Below, in pieces: positions 46,651 through 62,276 of a DNA stretch of 64,000 nucleotides (positions are counted from its first letter, which is position 1; every line of letters begins with the position of its first letter). The notes below the pieces were generated by a model. It worked only from the letters and a program-made list of their open reading frames with translations. It was not told where the DNA came from and did no database searches. This stretch comes from Phycisphaerales bacterium (GTDB lineage Bacteria; Planctomycetota; Phycisphaerae; Phycisphaerales; UBA1924): contig JAJVHS010000001.1 in assembly GCA_022072615.1 (NCBI GenBank), positions 47,713 through 111,712 of the forward strand. Direction: 5' to 3'. The position numbers were made by a program, and so were the translations under genes.

Positions 46651-49563
46651 TCAGCACCCCTGTTCGAACGCGTGCACGAAGGCGTCGAAGTCGTCCGTGT
46701 CCACGAAGCCCGACCGGTCGATGTCGGCGTCCAGCGTCCCGGCCTCGAACGCCGCGACGAAGAAGTCAAAGTCGTCGGTGTCGACGAAGCCGCTGGAGTC
46801 AAAGTCGGCGGTGCACGCCGGCTCGCATTCGTCGGGCAGGCCGTTCGAGTTCGAGTCGGCGCTCGTCCCCGAGGCCAGGTCGCACGAGTCGGGGACCTGG
46901 TTGCGGTTGCAGTCGGTGAACGACCCGGGCATGAAGTCAAAGCCCGTCGGCCGGTACAGGCCGGTGTCCGATCCGAGCACGTAGGCTCGCACCATGGCGC
47001 CGGTGTCGATGTCGAACTGATAGATCCGGGCGTCGGTGAGGTGCAGGTCGGTGGGCCAGCCGTAGGGATGGTCCTGGTCGTCGTGGGCGTGGTCGTCGTC
47101 ACCGTCGTCGTGGTCGTCGTCCCCGCCGCCGTGCCCGCGCGTGACGAGGTTTCTCGACGCGTAGACGTCGCCGTCGGGGCCAATGCGGAGGCACCAGGGT
47201 TCGTCCAGCGTGAGCCGAGTCGAGGTGCCGTTGATGTTCCACCGGCGCACGAACGCGCCCGTGTCGCCGCGGTACTCGTTGATGCGGTTGGTGCCGCGCG
47301 ACGCTACCAGCAGGTTGCCGTCGGGCTTGAACAGGATGCCGCGCGGATCCGCCAGCGATCCGCTCGCGGCCGCCACCAGTTCGCGCACGAACGCGCCGGT
47401 CTCGAGGCTGTACTCGAGCACGCGGTTGTCGCCGGTGGTCAGGCACAGGCGGTCGCCCGACACCGCGATACCGAAGGGCTGCGAAAGTCCTCCCGAACCG
47501 GGCGCGACGACGGTCCGCACCAGCGATCCGTCCACCAGCGAGAATTCCAGGACGCTGGCGAGCCCGCGGCTGACCACCAGCACCGTGTTCTGCTCGGGCC
47601 GCACCAGGAGCCCGGCGGGTGAATCCAGGCCCGCGGCGGCGGGGACCAGGTCCCGCACGATCGTTCCTTCCCGGTCCAGTTCGACGACGCGGTCCTGGAG
47701 CCCGCTCGACACCAGCACGCGGCGGCTTGGCGTGATGACAAGGTCCTGCCCGTCGGCGAGCTGGCCGGCGGCGGCGACATTCACCAGCACGCCGGTGCGA
47801 GAGAAGAACTCGCGGACGGACGCGTCGGAGGAGGTCGTCGCGCAGTACAGGTTCCAGGCGTGGTCGAGCTCGCGGTGGTCGGTTTGGCCGTTGGCGTCGC
47901 AGTCCTGGAACGCGTCGAGCACCACGTCGCGGTCCACGTCGAGGGTCATGTCGGTGTGGATCTGCCGGTAGTCCATCACGCCGTCGGCGTCGATGTCCGG
48001 CTCGCATTCGTCGGGGATCCGGTTGGCGTTGAAGTCGGAGCTGATCTGGAGCTGGATGTCGTGGCGGTCGGGGACGCCGTTGGAGTTGCAGTCGGCCTGG
48101 CACTCGTCGGGCAGGCCGTCGGCGTCGACGTCGCTGCTGAGGCCAGAGGCGATGTCGGCCGCGTCGAGCACGCCGTTGGCGTTGCAGTCCTCGCACTCGT
48201 CGGGAACACCGTTGGCGTTGACGTCCTGGCTCACGCCGAGCTGGATGTCCTGCGAGTCGGCCTCGCGGTTCTGGTTGCAGTCGGCCGCGAGGCACGTCCG
48301 CGTGGACATGTAGTTTCTCATCTGCTGGACGGTGTACTCGTGGAACCACAGGTCGTGGTTGGCGTCTCCGCCGCTGTAGGTCTGGCCGCAGTACGACATG
48401 ATCGTCCCGCGCTGCGGGTGCGAGAGTGCGTCGTCGCAGTTGTCGAGGTTGTAGTCGTGGGTGTGGTAGGTCCCGCAGTTGTGGCCGAGCTCGTGCGCCG
48501 TCACCATGATGTCCCGGGACGACCAGTGGGGCCGGTCAGGATCCGAGAAGTAACCCAGCGTATAGCCCGCCCACGAGTACGACGAGGAGTTGCACAGCGC
48601 CGGCGCGTACGCCACGCCGCCCGCCGAAAGCAGCCGGCTGCCGAGCAGGAGCTGCGCCGCGTCGCGGTTCACCGACTGCATCGTCGTGTTCCACAGCGTC
48701 CTGAACGAGTCGAGCGGATCGGTGCTGGTGTACGGATCATCGGTGTCGGGCCAGAGGCGCACGAACACCAGATCCACCCGCGTGTTGACGTCGCGGAGGA
48801 AGATGTCGCTCACCTGCCCGTAGAGCTGCACCACGTAGGTGTTCGCGTCCTCGATGTTGCCGAAAATCTGGAAGTACTCGCGGTCGGTATCCACCGCGAG
48901 CTGGAGCTGACGCAGCCCGCGCACCGGATCGTTCTCGCGGCCGCCCCCGCCCGGGGGCGCTTCGGGCGGCGGCGTCCAGCCCGGGGGCGGCGTCACGCCG
49001 CACAGCGGCACCTCGAGAGACACTCCGCCCTCGGAGGCGGCGAAGACCGCGTACTCACCGGGGTTCAGCGCGACGCCGGATCCTCCCGAGTGAGAAAGCA
49101 GGTAGCGTCCGCGGCCCGGTCCGAGGTCGATCCGCCCGACCGCGCTGCGGGGCGCCAGCGAGAGGAATACGTGCGACCCCGGTGCGCCCGCGACCGAACC
49201 GCGCAGCATGTGAATCTGCGATGCGTCGAACTCCACTTCGCGATTGGCCCCGGACGGCGTGGCCGCCACGAAACGCGTCGCCCGGGTGATGGGCGTGAAC
49301 TTCTCGAGCGTGAGCGTGACGCTCTCGCCGCCCGGCAGCGGGAAATCGGGCACCACGACCGGTCCGTCCCACGATTCGACCAGGCCGAGGGCGGAGGCGT
49401 CGAACGAAACGACCTGGACCCCGCCCGCGCTGCGCAGGGTGGTCGCCGCGATGTGAAGATCGAGGTCGTGGCTTGGCGGCAGTCCGCCGGGCTGGGCAAA
49501 GACAGTCACGGCGGTCCAGAAATACGCGAGAGAGGCCGCTTGGCGGCCGGCACGCTGTCGCAT
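46651..49563 (-). CDS. secreted multidomain protein: reprolysin-like zinc protease, TSP3-like Ca-binding repeats, NHL-type beta-propeller, Cys-terminal dockerin-like tail
   Basis: ATG 49563 followed by a signal peptide. VTAHELGHNCGTYHTHD fits HExxHxxGxxH. Repeated D.N.NG.PDECE units. About 6 NHL-like blades (e.g. DRVVELDREGTIVRDL, NRINEYRGDTGAFVRRW). Tail ends FVHAFEQGC. Confidence 0.8.
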   Translation of the reverse strand: MRQRAGRQAASLAYFWTAVTVFAQPGGLPPSHDLDLHIAATTLRSAGGVQVVSFDASALGLVESWDGPVVVPDFPLPGGESVTLTLEKFTPITRATRFVAATPSGANREVEFDASQIHMLRGSVAGAPGSHVFLSLAPRSAVGRIDLGPGRGRYLLSHSGGSGVALNPGEYAVFAASEGGVSLEVPLCGVTPPPGWTPPPEAPPGGGGRENDPVRGLRQLQLAVDTDREYFQIFGNIEDANTYVVQLYGQVSDIFLRDVNTRVDLVFVRLWPDTDDPYTSTDPLDSFRTLWNTTMQSVNRDAAQLLLGSRLLSAGGVAYAPALCNSSSYSWAGYTLGYFSDPDRPHWSSRDIMVTAHELGHNCGTYHTHDYNLDNCDDALSHPQRGTIMSYCGQTYSGGDANHDLWFHEYTVQQMRNYMSTRTCLAADCNQNREADSQDIQLGVSQDVNANGVPDECEDCNANGVLDAADIASGLSSDVDADGLPDECQADCNSNGVPDRHDIQLQISSDFNANRIPDECEPDIDADGVMDYRQIHTDMTLDVDRDVVLDAFQDCDANGQTDHRELDHAWNLYCATTSSDASVREFFSRTGVLVNVAAAGQLADGQDLVITPSRRVLVSSGLQDRVVELDREGTIVRDLVPAAAGLDSPAGLLVRPEQNTVLVVSRGLASVLEFSLVDGSLVRTVVAPGSGGLSQPFGIAVSGDRLCLTTGDNRVLEYSLETGAFVRELVAAASGSLADPRGILFKPDGNLLVASRGTNRINEYRGDTGAFVRRWNINGTSTRLTLDEPWCLRIGPDGDVYASRNLVTRGHGGGDDDHDDGDDDHAHDDQDHPYGWPTDLHLTDARIYQFDIDTGAMVRAYVLGSDTGLYRPTGFDFMPGSFTDCNRNQVPDSCDLASGTSADSNSNGLPDECEPACTADFDSSGFVDTDDFDFFVAAFEAGTLDADIDRSGFVDTDDFDAFVHAFEQGC
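46654..46815 (-). other. duplicated EF-hand/dockerin-like C-terminal module ending in Cys (tail A)
   Basis: CTADFDSSGFVDTDDFDFFVAAFEAGTLDADIDRSGFVDTDDFDAFVHAFEQGC then stop. Confidence 0.8.
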
Positions 49564-49766
49564 CGAGTTCCCTCACCTTCACCCCGCGGCGAAGCCGCGA
49601 GCATACCAGATGGTCCGGGAGAATCGGGACGCATCCGGCACAAACAGCGCGGGCCGAGCGGGATTTGTCTTTTCCGTTCCGGGGGTTCGTGCTAGATTCA
49701 TGCCGGGAACGCCCAAGCGGCGACCCGCAACCGCCGACGCAGCCAGACGTCTCCCGGAGATTGACC

Positions 49767-51917
49767 ATGGAACAGCATCGCCGGCCATCCGGCCGGCTTA
49801 TCGGAACGGCGTGTGTGCTTGCCGGGGCCGCCGGCCTGGCGGTCGCCGGTTCGACGGCCGAGAACGCGGTCGTGATCATCGACCCGGCCTACGCCGACGG
49901 CCTGTACATCGCCAATCACTACATCAACCAGCGGAACATTCCGGAATCCAACATCCTTTACATGGATTCCGCGGCCGCGGCCAACTACCAGCAGTGGACG
50001 ACCGTCCAGCAGCAGGCGTTCCGCGCGTTCCTCGACCAGCGCGGCATCTCCGACCACGCCGACATCGTGATCGTCGCCCCGACCGACGCCTTCTGGGTGT
50101 CCGAGGGCGGGCTGGTCTCCGATACGTGCTTCGACATCACACGCTTCAGCCTCGGCACGCTCTACACGATGACCTTCATCTCCGACGAGATTCTCGCCGG
50201 GCCCACGACGCAGGCCAAGGGCAACCGCTTCGCCTCGTCGACCGAGGCCGCCGTCGGCTTCGACAGCGACATCGCCTACCTCAACGGCGTGGCGAGCACC
50301 AACATCAACGCCAGGCGCTACTACATCGGCACCGGTCTTGCCTGGACCGGCGAACGCGGCAACCTCGTCTCGCAGGTCGTCAGCTCGCTCAACTCGAGCA
50401 TCGCGGCCGACGGGACCCGGCCGTCGGGCACGTTCTATTTCATGAACAACACCGCCGACTCGGCGCGCAACATCCGGGCCAGCGGCTACTCGGCCGCCAG
50501 GAACTCCATCATCTCGCGCGGCGGCCTCGCCGAGATCATCGTCGGCGATCTGCCGTACGGGAAGACCGATTGCCTGGGCATCATGACCGGCGTCGCCGGC
50601 TTCAGCCTCTTCGGCACCAACACCATCATCAAGGGCGGCGCGTACTGCGACCACCTGACCTCGTACGCGGCCGCGTACGACGTCGCCGGGCAGACCAAGA
50701 CCACCGAGTGGATCACCTGGAACGCGGGCGGGTCGTCGGGCGCGATCGAGGAGCCCTGCAACTACCCCGGCAAGTTCCCGCGGCCGATGATGCACGCGCA
50801 CTACTTCCAAGGCCTGTCGATGGCCGAGGCGTGGTTCCGGGCCATCCAGTACATCCCCTTCCAGCTCCACTTCGTGGGCGACCCCCTCGCGCGGCCCTTC
50901 GCGCACATCCCGCAGGTCTCGGTGCTCGACGCGCCGACCGGCACGGTGTCGGGCACCCTGACCCTCACGCCCGCGGCGACCACGACCCAGCCCGGCGCGT
51001 CGATCGCCGGCTACGAGCTGCTCGTGGACGGCGTCGCGGTTGATTTCTCGACCCCCGCCGATCCCGCGCTCTGGGTGAACACGGCCGGTCTTGCCGACGG
51101 CGTGCATGACGTGCGCGTGCTGGCGTACGACAGCACGGCGGTGAAGTCGTACGGGCGCTGGATCGGGTCGGTGACGGTGGACAATTTCGGCCGGTCGACC
51201 TCGCTGAGCGTCGTGCTCGCGTCGGGCAACCTCGCCTCCAGGTTCGATTTCAACGTCGCGGGCAACGGCCACGGCGTGAAGGAGATCCGGCTGCTGCACA
51301 ACGGACGCGTGGTGGGCGCGACGAGCAACTCGTCGGGCACGATCGGCGTCCATGGCCAGATCCTCGGCGCCGGCACCAGCACGCTCCGAGCGGAAACCGA
51401 GTACCTCGACGGCCGCGTGTCGCGCAGCGCGCCCGTCCAGGTGACGGTCGCGTCGTCGGGGACGCCGGCCAATGTCGCGCCCGTCGCCTACGGCTACCGC
51501 AAGATGCTGCTCACCAAGGAAGCGCATGTCGTCGAGCTGCCCGCGACCTACGACAGCGCGCTCACGGGGCCCGGGTACACCTACACGGTGCTCTCGGGGC
51601 CGACCATGTCGACCCTCGTCGGCACCTACGGCGGCGCGTACCGCATCTACAAGCCCAACCCCGATGCCGAAGGCCAGGAGGACATCACCTTCCGCGTGAC
51701 AACCCCGGGCGGGGCATCCAACATCGCGACCATCACGCTGGTCTACTCGCGCTGCCCGACCGACATCGACGGGTCGGGCTTCGTGGACGGCGACGACTTC
51801 GACGCGTTCGTCCTGCTGTTCGAGGCCGGCGACCCCGCGGCCGACTTTGACGGGACGGGCTTCGTCGACACCGACGACTACGACGCGTTCGTGACGGCGT
51901 TCGAGGCCGGGTGCTGA
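49767..51917 (+). CDS. secreted protein: N-terminal domain of unknown function (possibly TIGR03790-like), probable Ig-like beta-sandwich region, Cys-terminal dockerin-like tail
   Basis: ATG 49767 follows GGAG, then a signal peptide. The N-terminal VVIIDPAYADGLYIANHYINQRNIPESNILYM ... HFVGDPLARPF resembles, from memory, the TIGR03790 family. The assignment of the middle region is tentative, read from composition only with no motif identified. Tail ends FVTAFEAGC. Confidence 0.7.
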   Translation: MEQHRRPSGRLIGTACVLAGAAGLAVAGSTAENAVVIIDPAYADGLYIANHYINQRNIPESNILYMDSAAAANYQQWTTVQQQAFRAFLDQRGISDHADIVIVAPTDAFWVSEGGLVSDTCFDITRFSLGTLYTMTFISDEILAGPTTQAKGNRFASSTEAAVGFDSDIAYLNGVASTNINARRYYIGTGLAWTGERGNLVSQVVSSLNSSIAADGTRPSGTFYFMNNTADSARNIRASGYSAARNSIISRGGLAEIIVGDLPYGKTDCLGIMTGVAGFSLFGTNTIIKGGAYCDHLTSYAAAYDVAGQTKTTEWITWNAGGSSGAIEEPCNYPGKFPRPMMHAHYFQGLSMAEAWFRAIQYIPFQLHFVGDPLARPFAHIPQVSVLDAPTGTVSGTLTLTPAATTTQPGASIAGYELLVDGVAVDFSTPADPALWVNTAGLADGVHDVRVLAYDSTAVKSYGRWIGSVTVDNFGRSTSLSVVLASGNLASRFDFNVAGNGHGVKEIRLLHNGRVVGATSNSSGTIGVHGQILGAGTSTLRAETEYLDGRVSRSAPVQVTVASSGTPANVAPVAYGYRKMLLTKEAHVVELPATYDSALTGPGYTYTVLSGPTMSTLVGTYGGAYRIYKPNPDAEGQEDITFRVTTPGGASNIATITLVYSRCPTDIDGSGFVDGDDFDAFVLLFEAGDPAADFDGTGFVDTDDYDAFVTAFEAGC
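51753..51914 (+). other. duplicated EF-hand/dockerin-like C-terminal module ending in Cys (tail B)
   Basis: CPTDIDGSGFVDGDDFDAFVLLFEAGDPAADFDGTGFVDTDDYDAFVTAFEAGC then stop. Confidence 0.8.
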
Positions 51918-52081: not shown

Positions 52082-55000
52082 TCAGCAGCCGGCCTCGAAA
52101 GCGAGCACGAAGGCGGTGAAATCGTCGGTGTCGACGAAGCCCGTGCCGTCGAAGTCCGCGGCGTCGATGCCCAGCTCAAAGTCGATGACGAACGCGGTGA
52201 AATCATCCGTGTCGACGAAACCGGAGTGGTCGTAGTCCGACGGCGCCAGCACCGTGATCATGGCCGGGTCGGTGGGGAAGGCCCCGCACGAGTCACGGAC
52301 GAGGCAGTAGAACAGTCCGCCGTCGGCGCAATCGATGGGGCTGAACGTGAGCTGTTCGGTCTGGGCGCCGTGGATGCGGTCGTTGTCGACCACGGGCTCG
52401 TTCTCGCGGTACCACTGGTAGCTCAGGGTGCCGTTGCCGGCGGCGTCGACCACCAGCGAGACATCGTCGCCTCCCTCGTACGTGGTCGACTCGGGCTGCA
52501 GCGAGATGAGAATGGTCGACGACCCGAAGTGAACGCTTCCCGGCGACCCGGCTTTGTACCCGCTCCCGCCATCCGCGACCAGGTGGCTGGTGAGCATCTG
52601 GACGTCGCAGCAGTAGAGCGCCAAGCGGCCTCCGCCGCCGCCACCGCCGCTGGAGCCTCCCGCGCCGCCGCCGGCGGAGATCATGCCGGTCCCCGCGAGC
52701 GTTCCGCACTCGATCCACAGGCTGCCGCCGGCGCCTCCGCCGCAGCGCGGTTGGCCCGCCGATCCGTCGGCGGTGATCGAACCGGCGACGGAGAGCGTGC
52801 CGTCAACGCGCAGCCGCAGCGATCCACCGCCTCGACCGCCGACGCTCCCGTAGTAGATGGAATTGCCACCGCCGCTGCCCCACTCGATCGGGATCGGCGC
52901 CGAACCGTACGACGGTCCTCCCTGGGTATTCTGGGCACCGTCGCCGCCGGCTCCTCCGTGTCCGCCGCCGCCGCCGTAGTAGAGGGACTGACCGCCCGCG
53001 CCCGGGCCTTGGGCAGCCGCGAATCCCAGCCCGCTCACGCTCACCACACCGGCGGTCTGCACGGTCATGTTTCCGCCGGCGTAGATCTCCCCGTCGTTGA
53101 GCCAGAGTTCCGCGCCGCTGTCGATCAGGATGCTGCCGGCCAGGCCCAGCGTGGTTGCCTGCGCCGGGGTCTTGTTGCCGAATTTCGCCGCTCGCCGGAC
53201 GATCAGGTCCGCGTCGAACCAGACGGGACCCGAGATCGAGGTCATCGCGCCCTCGACCATGTTGTTGTCGATGAAGAGGCTGGCAAGACCCGATCCGGGC
53301 TGGAGCCAGATGGAGCCGGCGCCGCCGTACATGTGCCCGCTGCCGCCGAATGCGGTGAGCTGGCCGGTGAAATTCGACGTGCCGTATTCGACCGCGACGC
53401 GGCCGCCACCGCCGCCGCCGGCGCTGGCGTGTCCCGCGCCACCGTTGGCGGTGATGGTGCCCGAACCGGCGAAGGTGTCGCAGGTGATCCAGATGCTCCC
53501 GCCCGACCCGCCGCCGGCGCCGGTGCCGCCGTTGGTGCCGTTGGCGGAGATCGTGCCGCCCAGGTTCAGCGCCCCGCCGATCTGCAGCCGTGTCGAACCG
53601 CCCCCGGCGCCCCCCGACGACCCGTAGTACGAGGAGAATCCGCCCCCGGATCCGAGCTCAGTGGGTTCGGTAAACGACCCGTAGGCGACACCGCCGCTCG
53701 GCCCCTGCCCGGAGTTTCCGCCGTCACCGCCGAAACCGCCGCCGCCCGCGGAGTACAACCCGAGTGAGCCGGCCCCCGTTCCCGAGCCGCTGCCATAGCC
53801 AAGGCCCGACACCGTCAGCAGGGTTCCCGGCTGCAGCGTCAGGCCCCCGCCGGTCTGCAGCATGCCGTCATTGAGCCAGAACGTGCTTCCCGACTCCACC
53901 CAGACATCGCCGCTGAGGGTGAGCACGGTGCCCTGTCCCGCGGTCTTGTTGCCGAAGCTTGATGCGCCCTGCACCCAAAGGTCCGCGTCGAGCGACATCT
54001 GCCCCGTGATGGGGGTCATGGCGCCCGCCAACCCGCTGTTGTTGACGATCCATGTCGCCCGGCCGTTCTCGGGCTGCAGCCAGATCGTCCCCGCGCCGCC
54101 GGACGCGTGCCCGGTTCTGCCCAGTGCCTGGATCTGGCCGGCGAAGGCGTTGGTCGCGTACTCGACCGCGATCCTGCCGCCGCCTCCGCCGCTGCCACCG
54201 GAATTGCCCGCGCCGCCGTTGGCGGTGATGGATCCCGATCCGGCGAGCGTGTCGCACGTGATCCACAGGCTGCCGCCGGAGCCTCCGCCGGTGTTCGAGC
54301 CACCGCTCACGCCGTCGGCGAGGATCGATCCGTCGACCGTGAGCGTGCCGCCGATGCTGACGCGCATCGCCCCGCCGCCGGCGCCTCCGGTCGACCCGTA
54401 ATAGGACGAATTACCGCCACCCGAACCCAGGTGCACCGGGTTCACGAGAGATCCGTACGCGGGGCCGCACCCCGTGTTGTCCACCGCGGCGCCTCCCTCG
54501 CCGCCGTACCCCGCGCCCGCCCCGCAGTAGAGCGTCGACGCGCCGGCGCCGGGCCCCTGTCCGCCCGTGTATCCAAGGCCCGTGACGCTGAGCGATGCGT
54601 CGGAAGTGATCGTCGCGTCGCCGCTCGCGGCGAGTGTCCCGTCGTTGAGCCAGAGAATGCCCGCCGAATCAACCGTGATGTTCCCGTCCAGGGACAGGCT
54701 TGTTTCCTGCCCGGCGGACTTGTTCCCGAAGTTCGCGGCGCCCTTGATCGCGAGGTTCGCGTCGAGCGTCACCTGCCCGTCGATCGGCGTCATCGCGCCG
54801 GAATGCCCGGCGTTGTCGACGGTGAGCGTCGGGCGGCCGCCGCCGTACGTGACCCAGGAAGTCCCGGCGCCGCCGTACTGCGCGCCCGCGGCTCCCTTGG
54901 CTTGGATCTGTCCCGCGAAGTCGGACGTCCCGGCGACCACGGCGATCCTGCCGCCGGCGCCTCCGCCGCCGCTTGCGTGGCCCGCACCCCCGTTGGCGGT

Positions 55001-55738
55001 GATCACCCCGGATCCGGTGAACGACCCGCACGTGATCCACAGTCCGCCGCCCGATCCACCGCCGCTCCCCGTGCCGCCGGTCACGCCATCGACGATCACC
55101 GAGCCGTCGACCGTGAGCGAGCCGGCCACGGTCAGGTGCAGCACGCCCCCGCCCGATCCGCCCGGACCGCCGTAGTAGATCGTGCTGCCGCCGCCCGAAC
55201 CGAAGCTCGCGGGAACCTGCAACGAGTCGTATGAGTCGCCGCCCGTCACGCCCGACTGGCCGGTCCCCCCGGCGCCTCCATGCCCGGCGCCCGCGGCGTT
55301 GTACATGCCGATCGTGCCGGCTCCTGGGCCTTGGCCCGAGGTGTACCCGCGGCCAGCGAGATCGATCCTGCTGCCGATCTGGACGGTCACGTGTTCGAGC
55401 GCCGAGAGATCGGCCCCGAAGATCACATCCGTGCCCGCGCCACCGGAGTAGTCGTAGGAGAACGTGGTCGAGTGCGTGACGACGCCCGCCTGCTCGGAAG
55501 CGTTCTTCTGCACCAGCAGTGACTTGATCGTGTGTCTTCCGTTGACCGTCAGGGTGGTTCCCTGCACCACGACGTCGGCGTTGACCAGCGCCACCGGAGG
55601 GCCTCCGGCGGTGGGAACGATCGTGGTATCCAGCGGTCCGATGGTCGCTGGCGAGGTGATGAGCACGATCTCCGCCTGCGCCCAGACACTGACAACGCTG
55701 ACGACCGACATGAGGGCCGTTGCACGGTGATACTTCAT
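52082..55738 (-). CDS. 1218-aa secreted glycine-rich repeat protein (4 x 258-aa modules), Ig-like domain, Cys-terminal dockerin-like tail
   Basis: ATG 55738 lies 6 nt after GGGAGA. Signal peptide MKYHRATALMSVVSVVSVWAQA. Four modules start at GRGY/GLGY/GLGY/GLGF. The Ig-like segment contains GTLSYQWYRE...GLFYCLV. Tail ends FVLAFEAGC. Confidence 0.8.
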   Translation of the reverse strand: MKYHRATALMSVVSVVSVWAQAEIVLITSPATIGPLDTTIVPTAGGPPVALVNADVVVQGTTLTVNGRHTIKSLLVQKNASEQAGVVTHSTTFSYDYSGGAGTDVIFGADLSALEHVTVQIGSRIDLAGRGYTSGQGPGAGTIGMYNAAGAGHGGAGGTGQSGVTGGDSYDSLQVPASFGSGGGSTIYYGGPGGSGGGVLHLTVAGSLTVDGSVIVDGVTGGTGSGGGSGGGLWITCGSFTGSGVITANGGAGHASGGGGAGGRIAVVAGTSDFAGQIQAKGAAGAQYGGAGTSWVTYGGGRPTLTVDNAGHSGAMTPIDGQVTLDANLAIKGAANFGNKSAGQETSLSLDGNITVDSAGILWLNDGTLAASGDATITSDASLSVTGLGYTGGQGPGAGASTLYCGAGAGYGGEGGAAVDNTGCGPAYGSLVNPVHLGSGGGNSSYYGSTGGAGGGAMRVSIGGTLTVDGSILADGVSGGSNTGGGSGGSLWITCDTLAGSGSITANGGAGNSGGSGGGGGRIAVEYATNAFAGQIQALGRTGHASGGAGTIWLQPENGRATWIVNNSGLAGAMTPITGQMSLDADLWVQGASSFGNKTAGQGTVLTLSGDVWVESGSTFWLNDGMLQTGGGLTLQPGTLLTVSGLGYGSGSGTGAGSLGLYSAGGGGFGGDGGNSGQGPSGGVAYGSFTEPTELGSGGGFSSYYGSSGGAGGGSTRLQIGGALNLGGTISANGTNGGTGAGGGSGGSIWITCDTFAGSGTITANGGAGHASAGGGGGGRVAVEYGTSNFTGQLTAFGGSGHMYGGAGSIWLQPGSGLASLFIDNNMVEGAMTSISGPVWFDADLIVRRAAKFGNKTPAQATTLGLAGSILIDSGAELWLNDGEIYAGGNMTVQTAGVVSVSGLGFAAAQGPGAGGQSLYYGGGGGHGGAGGDGAQNTQGGPSYGSAPIPIEWGSGGGNSIYYGSVGGRGGGSLRLRVDGTLSVAGSITADGSAGQPRCGGGAGGSLWIECGTLAGTGMISAGGGAGGSSGGGGGGGRLALYCCDVQMLTSHLVADGGSGYKAGSPGSVHFGSSTILISLQPESTTYEGGDDVSLVVDAAGNGTLSYQWYRENEPVVDNDRIHGAQTEQLTFSPIDCADGGLFYCLVRDSCGAFPTDPAMITVLAPSDYDHSGFVDTDDFTAFVIDFELGIDAADFDGTGFVDTDDFTAFVLAFEAGC
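52085..52243 (-). other. duplicated EF-hand/dockerin-like C-terminal module ending in Cys (tail C)
   Basis: PSDYDHSGFVDTDDFTAFVIDFELGIDAADFDGTGFVDTDDFTAFVLAFEAGC then stop. Confidence 0.8.
52516..55354 (-). repeat. four tandem intragenic repeats, period 774 bp (258 codons)
   Basis: The G(R/L)G(Y/F) module-start motif begins at residues 129, 387, 645 and 903, i.e. exactly 258 residues apart each time. Modules 2 and 3 align without gaps; modules 1 and 4 share the same motif series at the same offsets. Confidence 0.85.
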
Positions 55739-55993
55739 GGTACTTCTCCCGCCTCGCAAGAAGGTTTTCAACGAAGAACGTCGCTATGAACTAATACGGA
55801 CACAAACATCCGTTGATCCCGGCACTGGTCCGGTTTTGATGGATCACGCCGCCAAGGCGTCGGTTCGGGATGGATTGGCGCACGTCCCGACCCTGCCGAA
55901 CGCGAAGCGAAAAAATGGTCCGAATCGAGCTATCTTCGCCGACTCTGGATGAATTGCCGACGGGGAACACCGATCGAGCGCATCCGGTCCGGC

Positions 55994-57370
55994 ATGAATG
56001 CCCAAGACAGCCGCTCGCATACCCGTTCACGGCGGATGAGGATGTTCCTCGCATTGTCGCTCGCGATCATCGCGGGCTCGAGCGTCCCCGCTCTCGCGCA
56101 GGAGCACGGGCCCCCGCCGGTCGTTCAGCGCAGTGCATCTCCCGGCCCGGATATCGCCGCCATCCAAGGCCGCATGAAGTCGGCCGTTGAAGAAGACGGG
56201 TTCTCGGGGGCCCTGCTCGTGGTTTCGCAGGGACGGGTGATCGTTCGCGACGGCTACGGGCTCGCGAATCGTGAAGAGAAGATCGCCAACACGCCCGCCA
56301 CGATCTTCGGGATCGGCTCGACGCCGATCGACTTCACCAAGGCGGCGATCCTTCTGCTCGAGCAGGAAGGCAAGCTCCATCTCTCCGACACGATCGGTAC
56401 CTACCTCCAGGGAGTTCCCAAGGACAAGCAGGCCATCACACTCGAACACCTGATGACAGGCGCCTCGGGCCTCAAGAACTTTCACGGTTCGCCACAGGAT
56501 CCAAACCCCGATCACACGTGGATCGACCGCGCCGAAGCAGTGCGCCGCATCCTGTCGAGCGAGCTTCTCTTCGAACCCGGCACCGGCAACGAGCACTCCC
56601 ACTCGGCATTCGGTCTCCTCGCCGCGATCGTCGAGCTCGTGAGCGGCCAGAGCTACGAGGCCTTTCTCAAGGCTCGTTTCTTCGATCCCCTCGGCATGCA
56701 CGACACCGGCTTCTTCGGCGAGCCGATCGACGCTGCTCGACTCGCCGTCGGGTACGGCCGCAAGAGCGGCACCGGGATCAACGCCCCGCCGTACTGGGGC
56801 AAGACCTCGTGGCTGGTCATGGGCAGCGGGGGCATGACCTCCACGCTCGACGACCTCCGGACGTTCATCGACGCGATCCGCGGAGGCAAGATCCTTCCGC
56901 GAGAGGCCACCCGAAAGTACATGTACCGTCCGGGCGACGTGCTCGCCGGTGGAGACATGCACGGATACGAGATCCTCATCGGGCTGAGCCGCGATCCCGG
57001 TTCGCTCATCCTCCTCGTCAACAACTGCTACGACGGCCGCGGCCCGAACCCGTCCTTCGAGCAGCTCTTCCAGGACCTGCTGCGGCTCTCCGCTCCTTCG
57101 GAGGGACCGCCGCCCTTCACGATCGGGGTGCGCTTCGATCTCCAGCAGGCCGGCGTGGTCCGCATTGAAGGTGTCGTCGAAGGGATGCCCGGCCAGGCAG
57201 CGGGCCTCAAGGCGGGCGACGTCATCCGCTCGATCAACGGCAAGTTCGACGAGAACGACCCGCTCGGCATCCTGAGCAGCCTCCTCCGGCACGATGAGCC
57301 CATTGTCTTCGAAATCGAGAGGGGCGGCGCAAGACAGAAGATCTCCGTCACCCCGCGCAAGCGTCCCTAG
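55994..57370 (+). CDS. beta-lactamase-fold serine hydrolase family protein with C-terminal PDZ domain
   Basis: Signal peptide RMRMFLALSLAIIAGSSVPALA. Class C/DD-peptidase-like core (GYGLANRE...PATIFGIGS...LLLEQEGKLHLSDTIGTYL...FEPGTG). PDZ-like GVVEGMPGQAAGLKAGDVIRSINGK. Start is ATG 55994, 56036 or 55949. Confidence 0.72.
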   Translation: MNAQDSRSHTRSRRMRMFLALSLAIIAGSSVPALAQEHGPPPVVQRSASPGPDIAAIQGRMKSAVEEDGFSGALLVVSQGRVIVRDGYGLANREEKIANTPATIFGIGSTPIDFTKAAILLLEQEGKLHLSDTIGTYLQGVPKDKQAITLEHLMTGASGLKNFHGSPQDPNPDHTWIDRAEAVRRILSSELLFEPGTGNEHSHSAFGLLAAIVELVSGQSYEAFLKARFFDPLGMHDTGFFGEPIDAARLAVGYGRKSGTGINAPPYWGKTSWLVMGSGGMTSTLDDLRTFIDAIRGGKILPREATRKYMYRPGDVLAGGDMHGYEILIGLSRDPGSLILLVNNCYDGRGPNPSFEQLFQDLLRLSAPSEGPPPFTIGVRFDLQQAGVVRIEGVVEGMPGQAAGLKAGDVIRSINGKFDENDPLGILSSLLRHDEPIVFEIERGGARQKISVTPRKRP

Positions 57371-57496: not shown

Positions 57497-58471
57497 GTGA
57501 CCCACGTCCCCGTCCTGCCCGCGGAGGTCCTCGAGCTGCTCGCGCCGCGGGCGGGCGAGGTGTACGTTGACTGCACGGCGGGCCTGGGCGGGCACGCGGC
57601 CGCCGTCGCGCCGCTCGTCGGGCCGACGGGCGCCATCATCCTCAACGACGTCGATCCCGCGAATCTGTCCCGAGCTGTCCAGAACGTCCAGGCCGCGGCC
57701 CCGCACACCCGCATCGAGACACACACGGGCAACTTCGCCGACCTTCCCCGGAAGCTTTCCGAACAGGCCGGCGGTGGGGGTCCCCGAGCCGACATGGTGC
57801 TCGCCGACCTGGGGTTTGCCTCGACCCAGGTAGACGACCCCAAGAGGGGTTTTTCATTTTCCCGCGACGGGCCCCTCGACATGCGGATGGACCCCTCGTT
57901 ACCGGTCACCGCGGCCGAGCTTGTCGCGACCTTGCCGGAGCGAGAACTCGCAGAGGTGTTACGGATGTACGGGGAAGAACGCCACGCCGGGCGGATCGCT
58001 CGAATTCTTGTTCGCGAGCGCGAGCACTCGCCGATAACGACCACGGGACGGCTCGCCGACGTCGTGCGGTCGGCCGTGCCCAGGCGGTCCGATCCCTCCT
58101 CGATCGACCCCGCCACGCGGACCTTCCAGGCCCTCCGCATCGTCGTCAACGACGAGATCGGCAGCCTCGAAGCACTCCTGGCGGAAGTCGGCCGCGGGGC
58201 CAGAGCGGCGGCGGCGGGGAAGCCCACGTGGCTGAACCCCGGCGCCCGCGTTCTGGTGATCAGCTTCCACTCGCTGGAAGACCGCCCGGTGAAGCAGGCG
58301 CTGGCGGAGCTGGCGTCGCAGGGATTGGTGGAACTCCTGACCGACGGTCCGCTCGGGCCGACGGAAGAGGAGGCGGCGAGAAACCCCCGGAGCCGGTCCA
58401 GCCGGTTGCGGGCGTGCCGGATCGTCGGAGTTCGCGGCCAGCGGGAGAAGTCGCGAGCCGGGCAGGTATGA
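57497..58471 (+). CDS. rsmH: 16S rRNA (cytosine1402-N4)-methyltransferase
   Basis: HVPVLPAEVLELL...VYVDCTAGLGGHA...DLGFASTQVDDPKRGFSF...ISFHSLEDR are MraW/RsmH signatures. GTG start. Confidence 0.93.
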   Translation: MTHVPVLPAEVLELLAPRAGEVYVDCTAGLGGHAAAVAPLVGPTGAIILNDVDPANLSRAVQNVQAAAPHTRIETHTGNFADLPRKLSEQAGGGGPRADMVLADLGFASTQVDDPKRGFSFSRDGPLDMRMDPSLPVTAAELVATLPERELAEVLRMYGEERHAGRIARILVREREHSPITTTGRLADVVRSAVPRRSDPSSIDPATRTFQALRIVVNDEIGSLEALLAEVGRGARAAAAGKPTWLNPGARVLVISFHSLEDRPVKQALAELASQGLVELLTDGPLGPTEEEAARNPRSRSSRLRACRIVGVRGQREKSRAGQV

Positions 58472-59586: not shown

Positions 59587-60072
59587 GTGTTCTGGAAACT
59601 GGTCGTTTGCCTGCTTGCGATCGGTGTCATGGGCTGCTCGCTCCTGGCGATGAGGCAGGCGCGTCTCCAGGCGGCCCACGAACTTGCGCAGACCCAGCTC
59701 CGCATCCGCGGGTGCGATGAGCGGCTTTTCAAGCTCCGCACGCAGATCGGCGCCATGGTCCGGCCCGAGGACGTTCGTTCGCTGGTGAGCGGGATGGCGA
59801 CCCTCAAGCCGTTGATGCCGTTGCCCACCTCCCGGCCCGCGTCGCAGGAGCGTTCGGCCGCTCCCTCGGATGCCGATCCGACCCTCGAGAGAACGGACGA
59901 TCAGCCCCGGCCGCCCGCCGCGGACCCCAACGGCAAGCCAGCGCCGGGCCGGACGCCGTCCGTCCCGCCGCGTGGCCTTTCCCGCCCGGCGACCGATGAA
60001 GCCCGGCGCGACGAGGGGTCTGTCGGCGAGCCGCTGTACGCCTTCGATCAGCCCGGGGAGGACGACCAGTGA
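59587..60072 (+). CDS. FtsL-like cell division protein
   Basis: GTG 59587 follows GGAGGAG. Short N-terminal TM (FWKLVVCLLAIGVMGCSLLA) then a coiled-coil-like LQAAHELAQTQLRIRGCDERLFKLRTQI. Located between rsmH and ftsI, with its stop overlapping the ftsI start. Confidence 0.55.
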   Translation: MFWKLVVCLLAIGVMGCSLLAMRQARLQAAHELAQTQLRIRGCDERLFKLRTQIGAMVRPEDVRSLVSGMATLKPLMPLPTSRPASQERSAAPSDADPTLERTDDQPRPPAADPNGKPAPGRTPSVPPRGLSRPATDEARRDEGSVGEPLYAFDQPGEDDQ

Positions 60073-62276
60073 CGACCGGCCCGTCATCCCAGGTCATGCC
60101 ACCGCGGTCGCCGCGAGCCGACCGCACGATCACGGCGGTGGCGTGGCTGCTCACGTTGCTGCTGGTCGTGATGCTCGGGCGGGTCATCCAGCTCCAGCTC
60201 GCACCCTCGCGTGAACTGGAGGAACAGCGCCAGTCGCGCATCACCACGCGGACCGAACTCGCCGTTCGCGGCGACATCCTCGACCGCCGCGGCAGGCTCG
60301 TGACCGCCACGCGCTTTGCGTGGCGCGTGTATGTCGACCCGGTGCTCCTGACGCCCGAGACGATCGACCTTGCGATCATGGAGATCGCCCAGGCGCTGGC
60401 CAAGCCCCCCGAAGAGATCGCCGACCGTGTGCTGTGGGCGCTCGAGGAGAACATGCGGCGCGCGGAAGTGGCGGCGGGGCTGGAGCCCGCCACGCCGGCG
60501 CGTCCCGCGCCAGATCAATGGCTCCGCGAGCTCGTCGGCCTTGAAACGCCGCGCACGGAGCCCGCGCCGGTCGTGGCGGCGCCCGCCGATCCTCAGCCGT
60601 CGGTCTTCGTGGACCAGGCCTCGGGCTACGAGGTCTCCGCGATTTCCTTCGGCGATGTGCCCGCGCCGCCGGTGGTGCTCAAGCCCATCCGCTACCTGCC
60701 GTTCCGGGATCTCGTGGAAGACGCGGTCGCGGCGACGCTGCGGCAGAAGAAGATCGCGGGCGTCGTGCTCGAGCGCGTGCCCGTCCGCGAGGAAGTCGCC
60801 GGCGCGCCCGTCGCCGCGCTGGTCGGCAAGGTCGGCGTCGATGCCAACATTGGGATGGAGGCCCGGCTTGACGACCGCCTCTCGGGCAAGGCCGGAAGGG
60901 TGAGCTACTACCGCGACGCCCGGATGCGGCCGCTGTGGATCGAGCCCGGCCAGGTGCAGCTCCCCGTGCACGGTGAGGACGTGCGCCTGTCGATCGACCT
61001 TGAACTCCAGGCCATGGGGCTGGCCGAGCTGAACCGGGGCATCGAGGAGGCCGACGCCGCGGGCGGACGCCTGGTCGCCATCGACCCGCGCACCGGCGAG
61101 ATCCTCGCGATGTGCGACATCGTCCGCGACCTGCCGGGCCTGAAGGAGTACCCGTGGGAGGACGACCCGCGGGCGCTGGCTCGCGACGGCAAGAAGCGCG
61201 CGCCGACGCTGCCCTACATGGCCCCGCGGCCCGGATCGGCTCGGTACCGCACGATCCAGGTCGACAAGGCCTCGCTCGAGCATCCCGACATCCCCGCCCT
61301 GCGCCGCAATCGCTGCGCGGAGGACGTGTACGAGCCGGGGTCGACCTTCAAGCCCTTCGTGTGGTCGACGATCACCGAGCTGGGCCTCGCCGGCGTCGAA
61401 GAGACCATCGACACCGAGAACGGCCGCTGGGTCACGCCGTACGGCCGCAAGCTCAACGACGTCACCAAGCGCGACGTCATGACCTGGTCCAACGTCCTGG
61501 TCAACTCCTCGAACATCGGCATGGCCAAGGTCGTCGAACGGCTCACGCACCGCCAGCTCCACGACGCGGTCCGCCGGTTTGGCTTCGGCAAGCCGACGGC
61601 CGTGGGCGTGGCGGGCGAGGCCAGCGGCCTGGTCACTCCCCTGAAGGAGTGGACGATCTACAGCCAGACGTCGTACGCGATGGGCCATGAGGTCGCCGTC
61701 ACGCCGCTCCAGATGGTGCGCGGGTTCAGCGCCTTTGCTCGCACCGGCCAGCTCGCGGGGACGCTCGCCGACCTGCGGCTGACCGCGGTCACGCCCGGCG
61801 AGATCGCCTCTTCGGTGCTGTACCGCGTGCTGCCGGCCCGGATCGCCGATCTCACCCGCCTCACCATGCGCGGCGTGGCGGAGAACATGCAGAACCGCCT
61901 CCAGCAGACGGACCACTCGCAGACGGGGTGGAAGTACACGATCTTCGGGAAGTCGGGCACCGCCGAGATCCCGCTCGGCAAGCCGCCGCCGGGCAAGCGG
62001 GCGCCCGCGGGATCCACGGGCTATTACGACGACCAGTACAACTCGAGCTTCATCGCGGGCGGGCCGATCGAGGACCCGCGGCTGGTGGTGCTGGTCGTGA
62101 TCGACGACCCGGGGCCGGAACTGGTCTTTGCACGTCCGCTCCCGCGGCACTACGGGGCCGTCACGGCGGGTCCGGTCGTTCGGCGTTTCATGGAACGCGC
62201 CCTGACGTACCCGGGCGCCCCGCCCCCGGCGACCCCCCGGGCCGACCTGGCGACGGCGGCGGCCGCGGCGGACTGA
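60069..62276 (+). CDS. ftsI: peptidoglycan D,D-transpeptidase FtsI (class B PBP)
   Basis: N-terminal TM anchor, then the SxxK (GSTFKPF), SxN (NSSNIG) and KSG (GKSGTAE) motifs in canonical order. Confidence 0.9.
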   Translation: MTTGPSSQVMPPRSPRADRTITAVAWLLTLLLVVMLGRVIQLQLAPSRELEEQRQSRITTRTELAVRGDILDRRGRLVTATRFAWRVYVDPVLLTPETIDLAIMEIAQALAKPPEEIADRVLWALEENMRRAEVAAGLEPATPARPAPDQWLRELVGLETPRTEPAPVVAAPADPQPSVFVDQASGYEVSAISFGDVPAPPVVLKPIRYLPFRDLVEDAVAATLRQKKIAGVVLERVPVREEVAGAPVAALVGKVGVDANIGMEARLDDRLSGKAGRVSYYRDARMRPLWIEPGQVQLPVHGEDVRLSIDLELQAMGLAELNRGIEEADAAGGRLVAIDPRTGEILAMCDIVRDLPGLKEYPWEDDPRALARDGKKRAPTLPYMAPRPGSARYRTIQVDKASLEHPDIPALRRNRCAEDVYEPGSTFKPFVWSTITELGLAGVEETIDTENGRWVTPYGRKLNDVTKRDVMTWSNVLVNSSNIGMAKVVERLTHRQLHDAVRRFGFGKPTAVGVAGEASGLVTPLKEWTIYSQTSYAMGHEVAVTPLQMVRGFSAFARTGQLAGTLADLRLTAVTPGEIASSVLYRVLPARIADLTRLTMRGVAENMQNRLQQTDHSQTGWKYTIFGKSGTAEIPLGKPPPGKRAPAGSTGYYDDQYNSSFIAGGPIEDPRLVVLVVIDDPGPELVFARPLPRHYGAVTAGPVVRRFMERALTYPGAPPPATPRADLATAAAAAD

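What the first reader, a model, noticed from the sequence alone, without database searches (positions are those of the whole stretch)
52516..55354. 1218-aa glycine-rich protein built from four tandem modules with an exactly conserved 258-residue period
Counted from ATG 55738, the module-start motif G(R/L)G(Y/F) begins at residues 129, 387, 645 and 903, so the spacing is 258 aa (774 bp) three times with no indel. Modules 2 and 3, compared by eye, share roughly half their residues. All four modules carry the same ordered landmarks: GQGPGAG, GSGGGxSxYYGSxGGxGGG, TLTVDGSIxADG, GGGSGGS(L/I)WI(T/E)C, ITANGGAG, GGGGGGR(I/V)AV, GGAG(T/S)IWLQP, FGNKT and LWLNDG. Divergent sequence with strictly conserved length argues for a rigid repeating fold rather than a recent duplication. 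One candidate is a large beta-solenoid turn set. Another is a polyglycine-II helix bundle like the glycine-rich domain of ALK/LTK-type receptors (Pfam Gly_rich). The family assignment is speculation on my part. An Ig-like domain and the Cys-terminal dockerin-like tail follow, so this would be a long fibre or adhesin displayed on the surface.
Basis: partly seen in the sequence, partly recalled or inferred. Interest (0 to 1): 0.7.

Follow-up and report, generated by a model that had tools for sequence, protein, structure and literature searches.

The report
Glycine-rich beta-solenoid surface fibre protein
This is a secreted 1218-residue protein of a Phycisphaerales bacterium, predicted to fold into a rigid rod of repeated glycine-packed beta-solenoid modules with an Ig domain and a dockerin-like anchor at its end; it belongs to a very large, unnamed family of bacterial surface proteins and is not related to the ALK/LTK glycine-rich domain.

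Summary
The repeat is real. The ORF 52082-55738(-) has modules starting at residues 129, 387, 645 and 903, an exact 258-aa period with no gaps. There are 3.67 modules, not four: the last stops at module position ~172, so it lacks FGNKT and LWLNDG.

AlphaFold2 predicts an ordered rod (pLDDT 92.3 for the whole protein, 96.6 for one module). Each module has a conserved ~170-aa glycine-rich "head" and a variable ~90-aa three-stranded solenoid "tail".

The ALK/LTK (Pfam Gly_rich) idea fails every test that could be run: no Pfam hit, hhalign probability 0.7%, no Foldseek match. Foldseek lists only beta-helix proteins, all weakly (best TM 0.26), so the head has no solved analogue.

The family is very large: 13,258 clusters at 50% identity, found in at least eight bacterial lineages. 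No Pfam or NCBIfam model covers it.

Module number varies from 3 to 8 in the 120 closest homologs, with up to 21 matched stretches per protein in the wider family. Module length varies from 231 to 285 aa, so the exact 258 is a feature of this gene, not of the fold.

The duplication is old: synonymous sites between modules are saturated.

Most likely role: a surface-anchored stalk or adhesin whose length is set by module number. This role is inferred, not shown.

The parts
52082..55738 (-). Whole CDS, 1218 aa plus stop codon; ATG at 55738
   Evidence: identical to public protein P0001/MCG3121720.1
55673..55738 (-). Sec-type signal peptide, residues 1-22 (MKYHRATALMSVVSVVSVWAQA, then E)
   Evidence: Read directly from the sequence: a basic N-terminus, a hydrophobic core and an AQA cleavage motif. 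No signal-peptide predictor was run.
55355..55672 (-). N-terminal beta-solenoid cap, residues 23-128. It resembles a module tail, and its motif I(T)xPxxIGPxDT...G(T)TLT(V)xGxH is conserved across phyla.
   Evidence: AF2 shows short strands at pLDDT 90-97. The tail HMM matches weakly here (10.6 bits) and strongly in the N-termini of many homologs. N-termini were compared.
54581..55354 (-). Module 1, residues 129-386 (258 aa)
53807..54580 (-). Module 2, residues 387-644 (258 aa). Head = 387-556 (window 54071-54580); tail = 557-644 (window 53807-54070).
53033..53806 (-). Module 3, residues 645-902 (258 aa)
52514..53032 (-). Module 4, head only, residues 903-1075 (module positions 1-172). This terminal truncation is present in nearly all of the 120 homologs.
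52250..52507 (-). Ig-like (I-set/Ig_3) domain, residues 1078-1163
   Evidence: Pfam Ig_3 at E 2e-7, 31.9 bits against cutoff 30. PDB sequence hits to contactin Ig domains. Foldseek 3bfo TM 0.91, rmsd 1.6.
52085..52249 (-). GC-type dockerin-like tail, residues 1164-1218: two D-x-D/S-G-x-G-F-V-D-T-D-D-F segments, ending in EAGC
   Evidence: NCBIfam NF041540 at 27.6 bits (cutoff 29), E 3e-6. Weak EF-hand hits. AF2 shows two helices, 1177-1189 and 1204-1216 in protein numbering. Motif scan.

Best explanation
The gene encodes a secreted protein that folds into one continuous, rigid beta-solenoid rod.

Architecture: after the signal peptide comes a short solenoid cap, then four glycine-rich heads separated by three ordinary three-stranded solenoid tails.

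Each head is about 170 aa. It starts with about 70 residues of ordered, glycine-packed chain that DSSP does not class as strand or helix. Three wide rungs of ~32 aa follow. Each rung has an 11-12-residue strand, a 3-residue strand, and a ~16-residue arc that also lacks DSSP strand or helix. These arcs include GGGSGG, ANGGAG and GGGGGGR.

The conserved columns are almost all glycine, plus a few core hydrophobic residues and one arginine. The sequence is therefore conserved for packing, not for catalysis.

The C-terminal Ig domain and the Ca-loop dockerin-like tail ending in Gly-Cys would hold the rod on the cell surface, with the N-terminal cap pointing outward. Module number then sets the length: about 9-10 rungs, roughly 4.5 nm, per module, and about 18-20 nm for this protein.

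The likely role is a spacer or adhesive fibre. Evolution adjusts it by adding, deleting and homogenising modules.

What is shown: the repeat, the predicted fold class, the family size, the variation in copy number and module length, and the age of the duplication. What is inferred: surface anchoring, orientation, dimensions and adhesive function.
For: - Repeat: period 258 aa, z = 35.
- Order: AF2 of residues 23-1218 gives pLDDT 92.3 and pTM 0.74 with no segment below 50. AF2 of tail1 + module 2 gives pLDDT 96.6 and pTM 0.94, and the glycine-rich stretch without DSSP strand or helix scores 94-98.
- DSSP shows strand patterns in rungs of ~23 aa in the tails and ~32 aa in the heads.
- All 50 listed Foldseek PDB candidates are beta-helix or solenoid proteins: polygalacturonase, FHA secretion domain, Ag43, tailspikes, SRRP, MpIBP.
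- Family conservation is concentrated in the head. Mean top-residue frequency is 0.56 for positions 1-170 and 0.33 for 171-258. The rung spacings 68-84 and 100-116 are 16 aa in 95-98% of 607 modules.
- Homologs keep the cap and module array but swap the C-terminal end: GC-dockerin, type I dockerin, or a verrucomicrobial C-terminal domain. This fits a conserved functional array with a lineage-specific anchor.
- More distant members carry adhesin-type partner domains: Big_1, Invasin_D3, DUF11, PATR, Chlam_PMP, G8, discoidin.
- Copy number is 3-8, and the last module is always head-only.
- Synonymous sites between modules are saturated while amino-acid identity is 52-55%, which indicates purifying selection.
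Against: - No experiment exists on any family member. All are annotated hypothetical.
- Structural matches to solved beta-helices are not significant: best E 0.065, TM 0.26.
- The dockerin HMM score is just below NCBI's cutoff (27.6 against 29), and no cohesin-like partner was identified.
- Gene neighbourhoods are not conserved and give no functional clue.
- AF2 can be overconfident on repetitive sequences.
Confidence: 0.62

Rival explanations
1. The heads are polyglycine-II helix assemblies. One version is a homolog of the ALK/LTK glycine-rich domain (Pfam Gly_rich). The other is an independent PGII array in which the glycine arcs of successive rungs stack as PGII segments.
For: - Runs of 3-7 glycines recur at fixed positions.
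- In three consecutive rungs, the ~16-residue glycine arcs have no DSSP strand or bridge state, yet pLDDT is 97-99. They are therefore ordered but not a beta ladder.
- Phage S16 gp38 is a precedent for PGII helices mixed with solenoid turns (bioRxiv 10.1101/2023.11.25.568672).
Against: - Homology to ALK/LTK is rejected. There is no PF12810 hit, no ALK or LTK in the profile search of PDB sequences, hhalign probability is 0.7%, and Foldseek finds no ALK, LTK, gp38, Obg or antifreeze hit among the 50 listed.
- Known glycine-rich PGII bundles strongly prefer antiparallel helices. Arcs stacked in a solenoid would be parallel.
- The phi/psi angles of the model could not be inspected.
Confidence: 0.2
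2. The region is compositionally biased, disordered low-complexity sequence, and the repeat has no defined fold.
For: 24.7% glycine, and glycine, alanine, serine and threonine together make up 53% of residues. No Pfam or PDB sequence match covers the modules.
Against: - pLDDT is 92-97 with no segment below 50.
- Glycines are conserved position by position in 607 modules from 120 proteins.
- Amino-acid identity is 52-55% while synonymous sites are saturated.
- Regular hydrophobic strand patterns are present.
Confidence: 0.03
3. It is a beta-helix enzyme (of the pectate lyase, polygalacturonase or other polysaccharide-active type), or a Ca-binding RTX-like beta-roll, rather than a structural fibre.
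For: The top Foldseek candidate is an endopolygalacturonase, and several pectate lyases and GH110 enzymes are listed. Dockerins are typical of carbohydrate-active enzymes.
Against: - All these matches are non-significant (E >= 0.065, TM <= 0.27).
- No Pfam Beta_helix, Pec_lyase or HemolysinCabind hit.
- Only 3 isolated GGxGxD motifs and no nonapeptide period.
- The conserved columns are glycines and core hydrophobic residues, with no conserved acidic or catalytic cluster.
- The same module is repeated 3-21 times, which is typical of a structural array and not of an active site.
Confidence: 0.1

Closest known systems
Right-handed parallel beta-helix / beta-solenoid adhesins and fibres (FHA/TpsA, Ag43 and pertactin passengers, SRRP binding region, phage tailspikes, MpIBP ice-adhesin RIV)
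   Same: Stacked rungs of short strands form a long rigid rod. The protein is secreted and likely surface-exposed. Length varies through repeat number. Ig-like domains accompany the array. These are the only kinds of protein that Foldseek retrieves.
   Different: - No significant structural or sequence match: TM <= 0.27, and no Pfam Beta_helix, PATR or Chlam_PMP hit in this protein.
- The rungs in the head are unusually wide (~32 aa), and half of each rung is glycine-rich chain that DSSP does not class as strand or helix.
- There is a higher-order 258-aa super-repeat that alternates two kinds of rung.
- There is no autotransporter or TPS secretion domain.
ALK/LTK extracellular glycine-rich domain (Pfam PF12810 Gly_rich; PDB 7LS0, 7N00, 7NX0)
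   Same: Superficial motif resemblance: a glycine run followed by a hydrophobic strand (GGGGGGATYVF in ALK, GGGSGGSLWIT here) and a strand followed by a glycine run (LIIAAGGGG in ALK, SITANGGAG here).
   Different: No Pfam hit, hhalign probability 0.7%, no Foldseek hit. ALK has a single globular TNF-like domain carrying 14 mostly antiparallel PGII helices. Here the predicted fold is a tandem solenoid.
GC-type dockerin domain-anchored proteins of Phycisphaerae (NCBIfam NF041540) and type I dockerins (PF00404)
   Same: The C-terminal duplicated Ca-loop/helix segment ends in Gly-Cys. The convergent neighbouring gene carries the same tail. Planctomycetota homologs P0003 and P0010 carry a classical type I dockerin in the same position.
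   Different: The score of 27.6 bits is just under the curated cutoff of 29. No cohesin partner is known or found, and the role of the terminal Cys is unknown.
Glycine-rich 'collagen-like' proteins of giant viruses and prasinoviruses (BFVD models: Ostreococcus mediterraneus virus 2 A0A6H1QWC9, Bathycoccus virus PA14 protein A0A7S6NY19, Orpheovirus A0A2I2L380, Pandoravirus S4VX73)
   Same: These are the only hits at Foldseek E <= 0.001 (six hits; the named ones span E 2e-5 to 5e-4, 18-23% identity). This suggests related glycine-rich solenoid modules in viral fibre proteins.
   Different: They are predicted models only. TM is 0.25-0.38. tblastn of the module against phage genomes finds nothing.

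Membership tests
Pfam PF12810 Gly_rich (ALK/LTK glycine-rich domain) | Match to the Pfam HMM at or above the gathering score | tested here: not met
   No PF12810 hit for the whole protein at E<=1 or for a single module at E<=10. None appears in the precomputed Pfam column of 120 homologs.
Pfam PF12810 Gly_rich (ALK/LTK glycine-rich domain) | Detectable sequence or profile homology to the solved ALK/LTK GRD | tested here: not met
   The module profile searched against all PDB sequences finds no ALK or LTK at E<=10. hhalign of the module alignment against the ALK GRD gives 0.7% probability. That ALK sequence was verified as 100% identical to 7mzw_A.
Pfam PF12810 Gly_rich (ALK/LTK glycine-rich domain) | Fold: a TNF-like beta-sandwich carrying a honeycomb of PGII helices | tested here: not met
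   Foldseek of the pLDDT 96.6 module model against the PDB shows no ALK or LTK chain among the 50 listed hits, and no hit at E<=0.001. DSSP shows a solenoid strand pattern.
Polyglycine-II helix assemblies in general | Glycine segments with PGII backbone angles, packed at about 4.8 A | not testable with these tools
   Model coordinates were not provided. DSSP output collapses everything outside helix and strand into one class.
Beta-solenoid / parallel beta-helix | Consecutive rungs of 2-3 short strands that repeat every ~18-33 residues and form one continuous domain | tested here: met
   DSSP of both AF2 models shows three-strand rungs of ~23 aa in the tails and strand pairs every ~32 aa in the heads. 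pTM is 0.94 across tail-head-tail.
Beta-solenoid / parallel beta-helix | Significant structural similarity to a solved beta-helix | tested here: inconclusive
   Only beta-helix proteins are retrieved, but the best has E 0.065, TM 0.26, rmsd 12 A.
NCBIfam NF041540 GC-type dockerin domain-anchored protein | HMM score at or above the curated cutoff (29 bits) | tested here: not met
   27.6 bits, E 3e-6, covering profile positions 15-67 of 67. This is a near miss.
NCBIfam NF041540 GC-type dockerin domain-anchored protein | C-terminal duplicated Asp-rich Ca-loop plus helix, ending in Gly-Cys | tested here: met
   The sequence ends DYDHSGFVDTDDFTAFV...DFDGTGFVDTDDFTAFVLAFEAGC followed by the stop. 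AF2 shows two helices. Weak EF-hand hits.
Immunoglobulin I-set/Ig_3 domain | Pfam HMM above the gathering score, and an Ig fold | tested here: met
   Ig_3 at 31.9 bits (cutoff 30) and I-set at 24.8 bits (cutoff 23.7). Foldseek 3bfo TM 0.91, rmsd 1.6 A.
RTX beta-roll (HemolysinCabind) | Tandem GGxGxDxUx nonapeptides | tested here: not met
   Three isolated GGxGxD matches, no 9-aa period and no Pfam hit.
Chlamydial polymorphic membrane protein repeats (PF02415) | Chlam_PMP HMM hits (GGA[ILV] / FxxN repeats) | tested here: not met
   No hit in this protein. There is one weak hit elsewhere in a distant family member, L010, outside the head.

The most novel reading that the evidence does not exclude
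The ~170-aa head may be a fold with no solved analogue: a wide solenoid in which the glycine-only arcs of successive rungs stack in parallel as polyglycine-II-like segments. That would make it a hybrid of a beta-helix and a PGII lattice. It would be present in more than 13,000 sequence clusters across at least eight bacterial lineages, and possibly in giant-virus fibres, and it would contradict the antiparallel preference of all known PGII bundles.
Probability: 0.2. Interest if true: 0.7.

Novelty: new variant of a known kind. Interest (0 to 1): 0.45.

Why it matters
This is a confidently predicted repeat module without a Pfam or NCBIfam model and without a solved structural analogue. It is nevertheless present in thousands of large bacterial surface proteins, including Planctomycetota, Verrucomicrobiota, Myxococcota, Chloroflexota and Patescibacteria (CPR, Dojkabacteria).

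Defining it would let annotation pipelines name a large block of proteins now labelled hypothetical. Glycine-packed rigid rods are also of interest for protein design.

For Phycisphaerae, the protein adds a candidate structural component to the poorly understood set of cell-surface proteins that end in GC-type dockerins.

It is not a surprise at the level of biology. It is one more kind of beta-solenoid surface fibre.

Tried and rejected
- **Family libraries.** Pfam, NCBIfam and PHROGs scans of the protein found only the Ig domain and the dockerin tail; a Pfam scan of a single module found nothing over the modules.
- **PDB by sequence.** phmmer and a module profile found only Ig-domain hits, or nothing.
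- **ALK.** hhalign against the ALK GRD gave 0.7% probability.
- **Foldseek with the full-length model.** The hit list was taken over by the Ig domain, so a module-only model was made.
- **Phage genomes.** tblastn of a module found no match.
- **Gene neighbourhood.** The window, P0002 and P0004 share no conserved neighbours, so context gives no functional clue.
- **Alignments.** One with 93 full-length homologs failed. One with full-length ids and a 351-aa query mis-registered the repeats, so windows were cut by script instead.
- **Literature.** Searches on PGII, GC-type dockerin and AgmC found nothing about this family.
- **AgmC lead.** P0008 gives a weak NCBIfam hit to gliding_AgmC_N (21 bits against a cutoff of 275). 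I did not take this as meaningful.


Full report
**1. Observation.**
The minus-strand ORF 52082..55771 gives 1218 aa from ATG 55738. It is identical to a public protein annotated only as "hypothetical protein", from a Phycisphaerales MAG (MCG3121720.1). Glycine makes up 24.7% of residues.

The motif G[RL]G[YF] occurs only at residues 129, 387, 645 and 903. Ungapped self-identity peaks at lags 258, 516 and 774 (40.6%, 34% and 22%), against a background of 14-16%. Within the array, identity at lag 258 is 52.7%, against 12.8 +/- 1.1% in 2000 shuffles (z = 35). Modules 1-3 are 52-55% identical with no gap.

Two points need correcting:
- The fourth module is truncated. It matches a module HMM only over positions 1-172 (residues 903-1075), so it has no GGAG(T/S)IWLQP, FGNKT or LWLNDG.
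Each occurs in 1-3 modules, always at the same module offset.

The window holds no other copy of the module.

**2. Domain content.**
Pfam finds only an Ig domain at residues 1078-1163 (Ig_3, 31.9 bits, cutoff 30), plus weak EF-hand hits in the tail. NCBIfam finds only the GC-type dockerin model NF041540, at 27.6 bits and just under its cutoff of 29. No library reports anything over the modules. This includes Pfam Gly_rich PF12810, Beta_helix, Chlam_PMP and HemolysinCabind, even for a single module at E<=10. Residues 1-22 read as a Sec signal peptide ending in AQA; this is from the sequence only, and no predictor was run.

**3. The family.**
A word-indexed search gave more than 1,423 homologs. 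An exhaustive HMMER search with a 14-module profile gave 13,258 representatives of 50%-identity clusters at E<=1e-3, and 4,467 at E<=1e-30. Some proteins have up to 21 matched stretches and reach 6.5 kaa.

Named members are Planctomycetota and Verrucomicrobiota (for example Pedosphaera parvula B9XP38). A scan of GTDB species genomes with one head also found it in Myxococcota, Eisenbacteria, Lentisphaerales, Anaerolineaceae, Dojkabacteria and Krumholzibacteriia. Partner domains in these proteins are of the adhesin type: Big_1, Invasin_D3, DUF11, PATR, Chlam_PMP, G8, discoidin and CarboxypepD_reg. None of them has a Pfam model over the head.

**4. Anatomy of the module across the family.**
In the 120 closest homologs, copy number is 3-8: 6 copies in 52 proteins, 7 in 44, 5 in 11, 4 in 10, 3 in 2 and 8 in 1. 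In nearly all of them the last copy stops at module position ~168-172.

A profile of the C-terminal 90 residues of the module (the "tail") matches the N-terminal regions of many homologs and matches this protein weakly. The real architecture is therefore: signal peptide, then (tail + head) repeated N times, then a C-terminal end. In that phase this protein has four complete units.

Conservation lies in the head. Mean top-residue frequency is 0.56 for positions 1-170 and 0.33 for 171-258. The conserved columns are almost all glycine, plus Y42, P48, S53, R136, F146, D180-N181 and core aliphatic residues. FGNKT and LWLNDG are not conserved in the family.

Module spacing ranges from 231 to 285 aa, with a mode of 257. 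Only the rung spacings are rigid: positions 68-84 and 100-116 are 16 aa in 95-98% of 607 modules, and 136-164 is 28 aa in 76%. The first 68 positions and the tail take indels freely. The exact 258-aa period is therefore a property of this gene, not of the fold.

**5. Age and mode of the repeat.**
Between modules of this gene, third codon positions at conserved 4-fold residues are 38-47% identical. Chance at this GC3 is 41%. Synonymous sites are therefore saturated while proteins stay 52-55% identical, which indicates an old duplication under purifying selection.

In other Phycisphaerales-type homologs, modules of one protein are 60-89% identical to each other but only ~40-50% identical to modules of any other protein. 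Each of those proteins has its own uniform period: 238 x4, 242 x3, 254 or 241 x3. That pattern indicates lineage-specific amplification or homogenisation, together with copy-number change (3, 4 or 5 copies among the nearest relatives).

**6. Predicted structure.**
AF2 on residues 23-1218 with a 26-row alignment gives mean pLDDT 92.3 and pTM 0.74, with no segment below 50. AF2 on tail1 + module 2 (residues 294-644) with 31 register-correct rows gives pLDDT 96.6 and pTM 0.94.

The DSSP pattern is as follows:
- The tails are about four rungs of three short strands, ~23 aa per rung.
- The head begins with ~70 residues that have only isolated bridges, at pLDDT 94-98.
- Three rungs of ~32 aa follow. 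Each has an 11-12-residue strand, a 3-residue strand and a ~16-residue glycine arc with no strand state.
- The head then runs through GGAGT-IWLQP back into the tail.

The region is therefore ordered and repeating, which refutes the low-complexity reading. Model coordinates were not provided. The dimensions I give (about 9-10 rungs or ~4.5 nm per module, ~18-20 nm in total) are inferences from the standard 4.8 A rise per rung.

**7. Comparison with known structures.**
Foldseek with the full-length model returned only Ig domains. With the module model there is no PDB hit at E<=0.001. The best is endopolygalacturonase 1hg8 (E 0.065, TM 0.26). The rest of the list is beta-helix or solenoid proteins: FHA and HxuA secretion domains, Ag43, tailspikes, pectate lyases, SRRP and MpIBP.

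No ALK, LTK, gp38, Obg or springtail antifreeze chain appears. The module profile finds no ALK or LTK among PDB sequences. hhalign against the ALK GRD gives 0.7% probability; that ALK sequence was confirmed as 100% identical to 7mzw_A. Membership in Gly_rich/ALK-LTK is therefore rejected on every testable criterion.

Whether the glycine arcs adopt PGII geometry remains untested. Known glycine-rich PGII bundles prefer antiparallel packing (bioRxiv 10.1101/2023.11.25.568672), whereas arcs stacked in a solenoid would be parallel.

Against predicted viral structures, six hits reach E<=0.001 (lowest 2e-5; TM 0.25-0.38). Those with names are prasinovirus, Orpheovirus and Pandoravirus proteins, several annotated as collagen-like. 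tblastn against phage genomes found nothing.

**8. Mechanism.**
Homologs keep the N-terminal cap motif and the module array but exchange the C-terminal end: Ig plus GC-dockerin in Phycisphaerales, Ig plus type I dockerin in other Planctomycetota, and an unannotated ~70-aa domain in Verrucomicrobiota. This fits an array that is the functional body, with a lineage-specific anchor.

There is no conserved polar cluster that would suggest catalysis, and no conserved gene neighbourhood.

My best explanation, at about 0.6 overall, is a surface-anchored rigid stalk or adhesive fibre whose length is set by module number. The fold class is more certain than the function. Rivals: an independent PGII array (0.2), a beta-helix enzyme or Ca-binding roll (0.1), and disorder (0.03).

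**9. Verdict.**

The protein belongs to a very large, unnamed family, and its glycine-rich head has no solved analogue. I classify it as a new variant of a known kind, of moderate interest.

Noticed in passing
window 49473-51917 (+): The convergent neighbouring gene (up to 814 aa) ends in the same GC-type dockerin tail (DFDGTGFVDTDDYDAFVTAFEAGC, window 51843-51917). It has a Big_9 Ig domain at aa 667-756, and its N-terminal ~500 aa have no Pfam match. These are the only two GC-dockerin tails in the window, and their 3' ends lie 165 bp apart.
   Followed up: partly
window 46651-49563 (-): A 970-aa protein with a reprolysin-like M12B zinc metalloprotease domain (Reprolysin_5, E 1e-18) and a long C-terminal extension.
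   Followed up: no
window 55949-57370 (+) and 57497-58471 (+): A beta-lactamase-fold protein with a C-terminal PDZ domain is followed by RsmH/MraW (E 1e-81). RsmH normally opens the dcw cell-division cluster. The long ORF at 60069-62276 may be FtsI; this was not checked.
   Followed up: no
homologs P0008, P0013, P0019, P0023, P0069, P0090, P0121 (C-termini): Verrucomicrobial family members end in a conserved ~70-aa segment, W[FY]G..GV.YQ...S.NLVDW.PYG...G.NGP...P......FFRV. NCBIfam scans of three of them (P0008, P0013, P0090) found no match there, and no Pfam entry on record for them covers it. It is probably a lineage-specific sorting or anchor domain.
   Followed up: no
BFVD hits to the module model: Proteins of Ostreococcus and Bathycoccus viruses, and 'collagen-like' proteins of Orpheovirus and Pandoravirus, resemble the module at Foldseek E 2e-5 to 5e-4. 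Some viral 'collagen-like' annotations may in fact be glycine-rich solenoids of this kind.
   Followed up: partly
loci L005 (Anaerolineaceae) and L007 (Dojkabacteria): The head domain also occurs in Chloroflexota and in a CPR/Patescibacteria genome. In L005 the matched head is followed directly by Big_1, Invasin_D3 and DUF11 domains. The head therefore also occurs outside the head-tail arrays seen in the PVC proteins.
   Followed up: partly
homologs P0007, P0014, P0005: Modules within one protein are 70-89% identical, but only ~45% identical to modules of any other protein. This suggests recent gene conversion or re-amplification within these genes, unlike the old, saturated repeats of the window's gene.
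   Followed up: partly
window 52226-53767 (+), 54107-55234 (+) and others: Long ORFs (up to 513 aa) lie antisense to and inside the gene. In a 69% GC sequence these are expected by chance and should not be called as genes.
   Followed up: no
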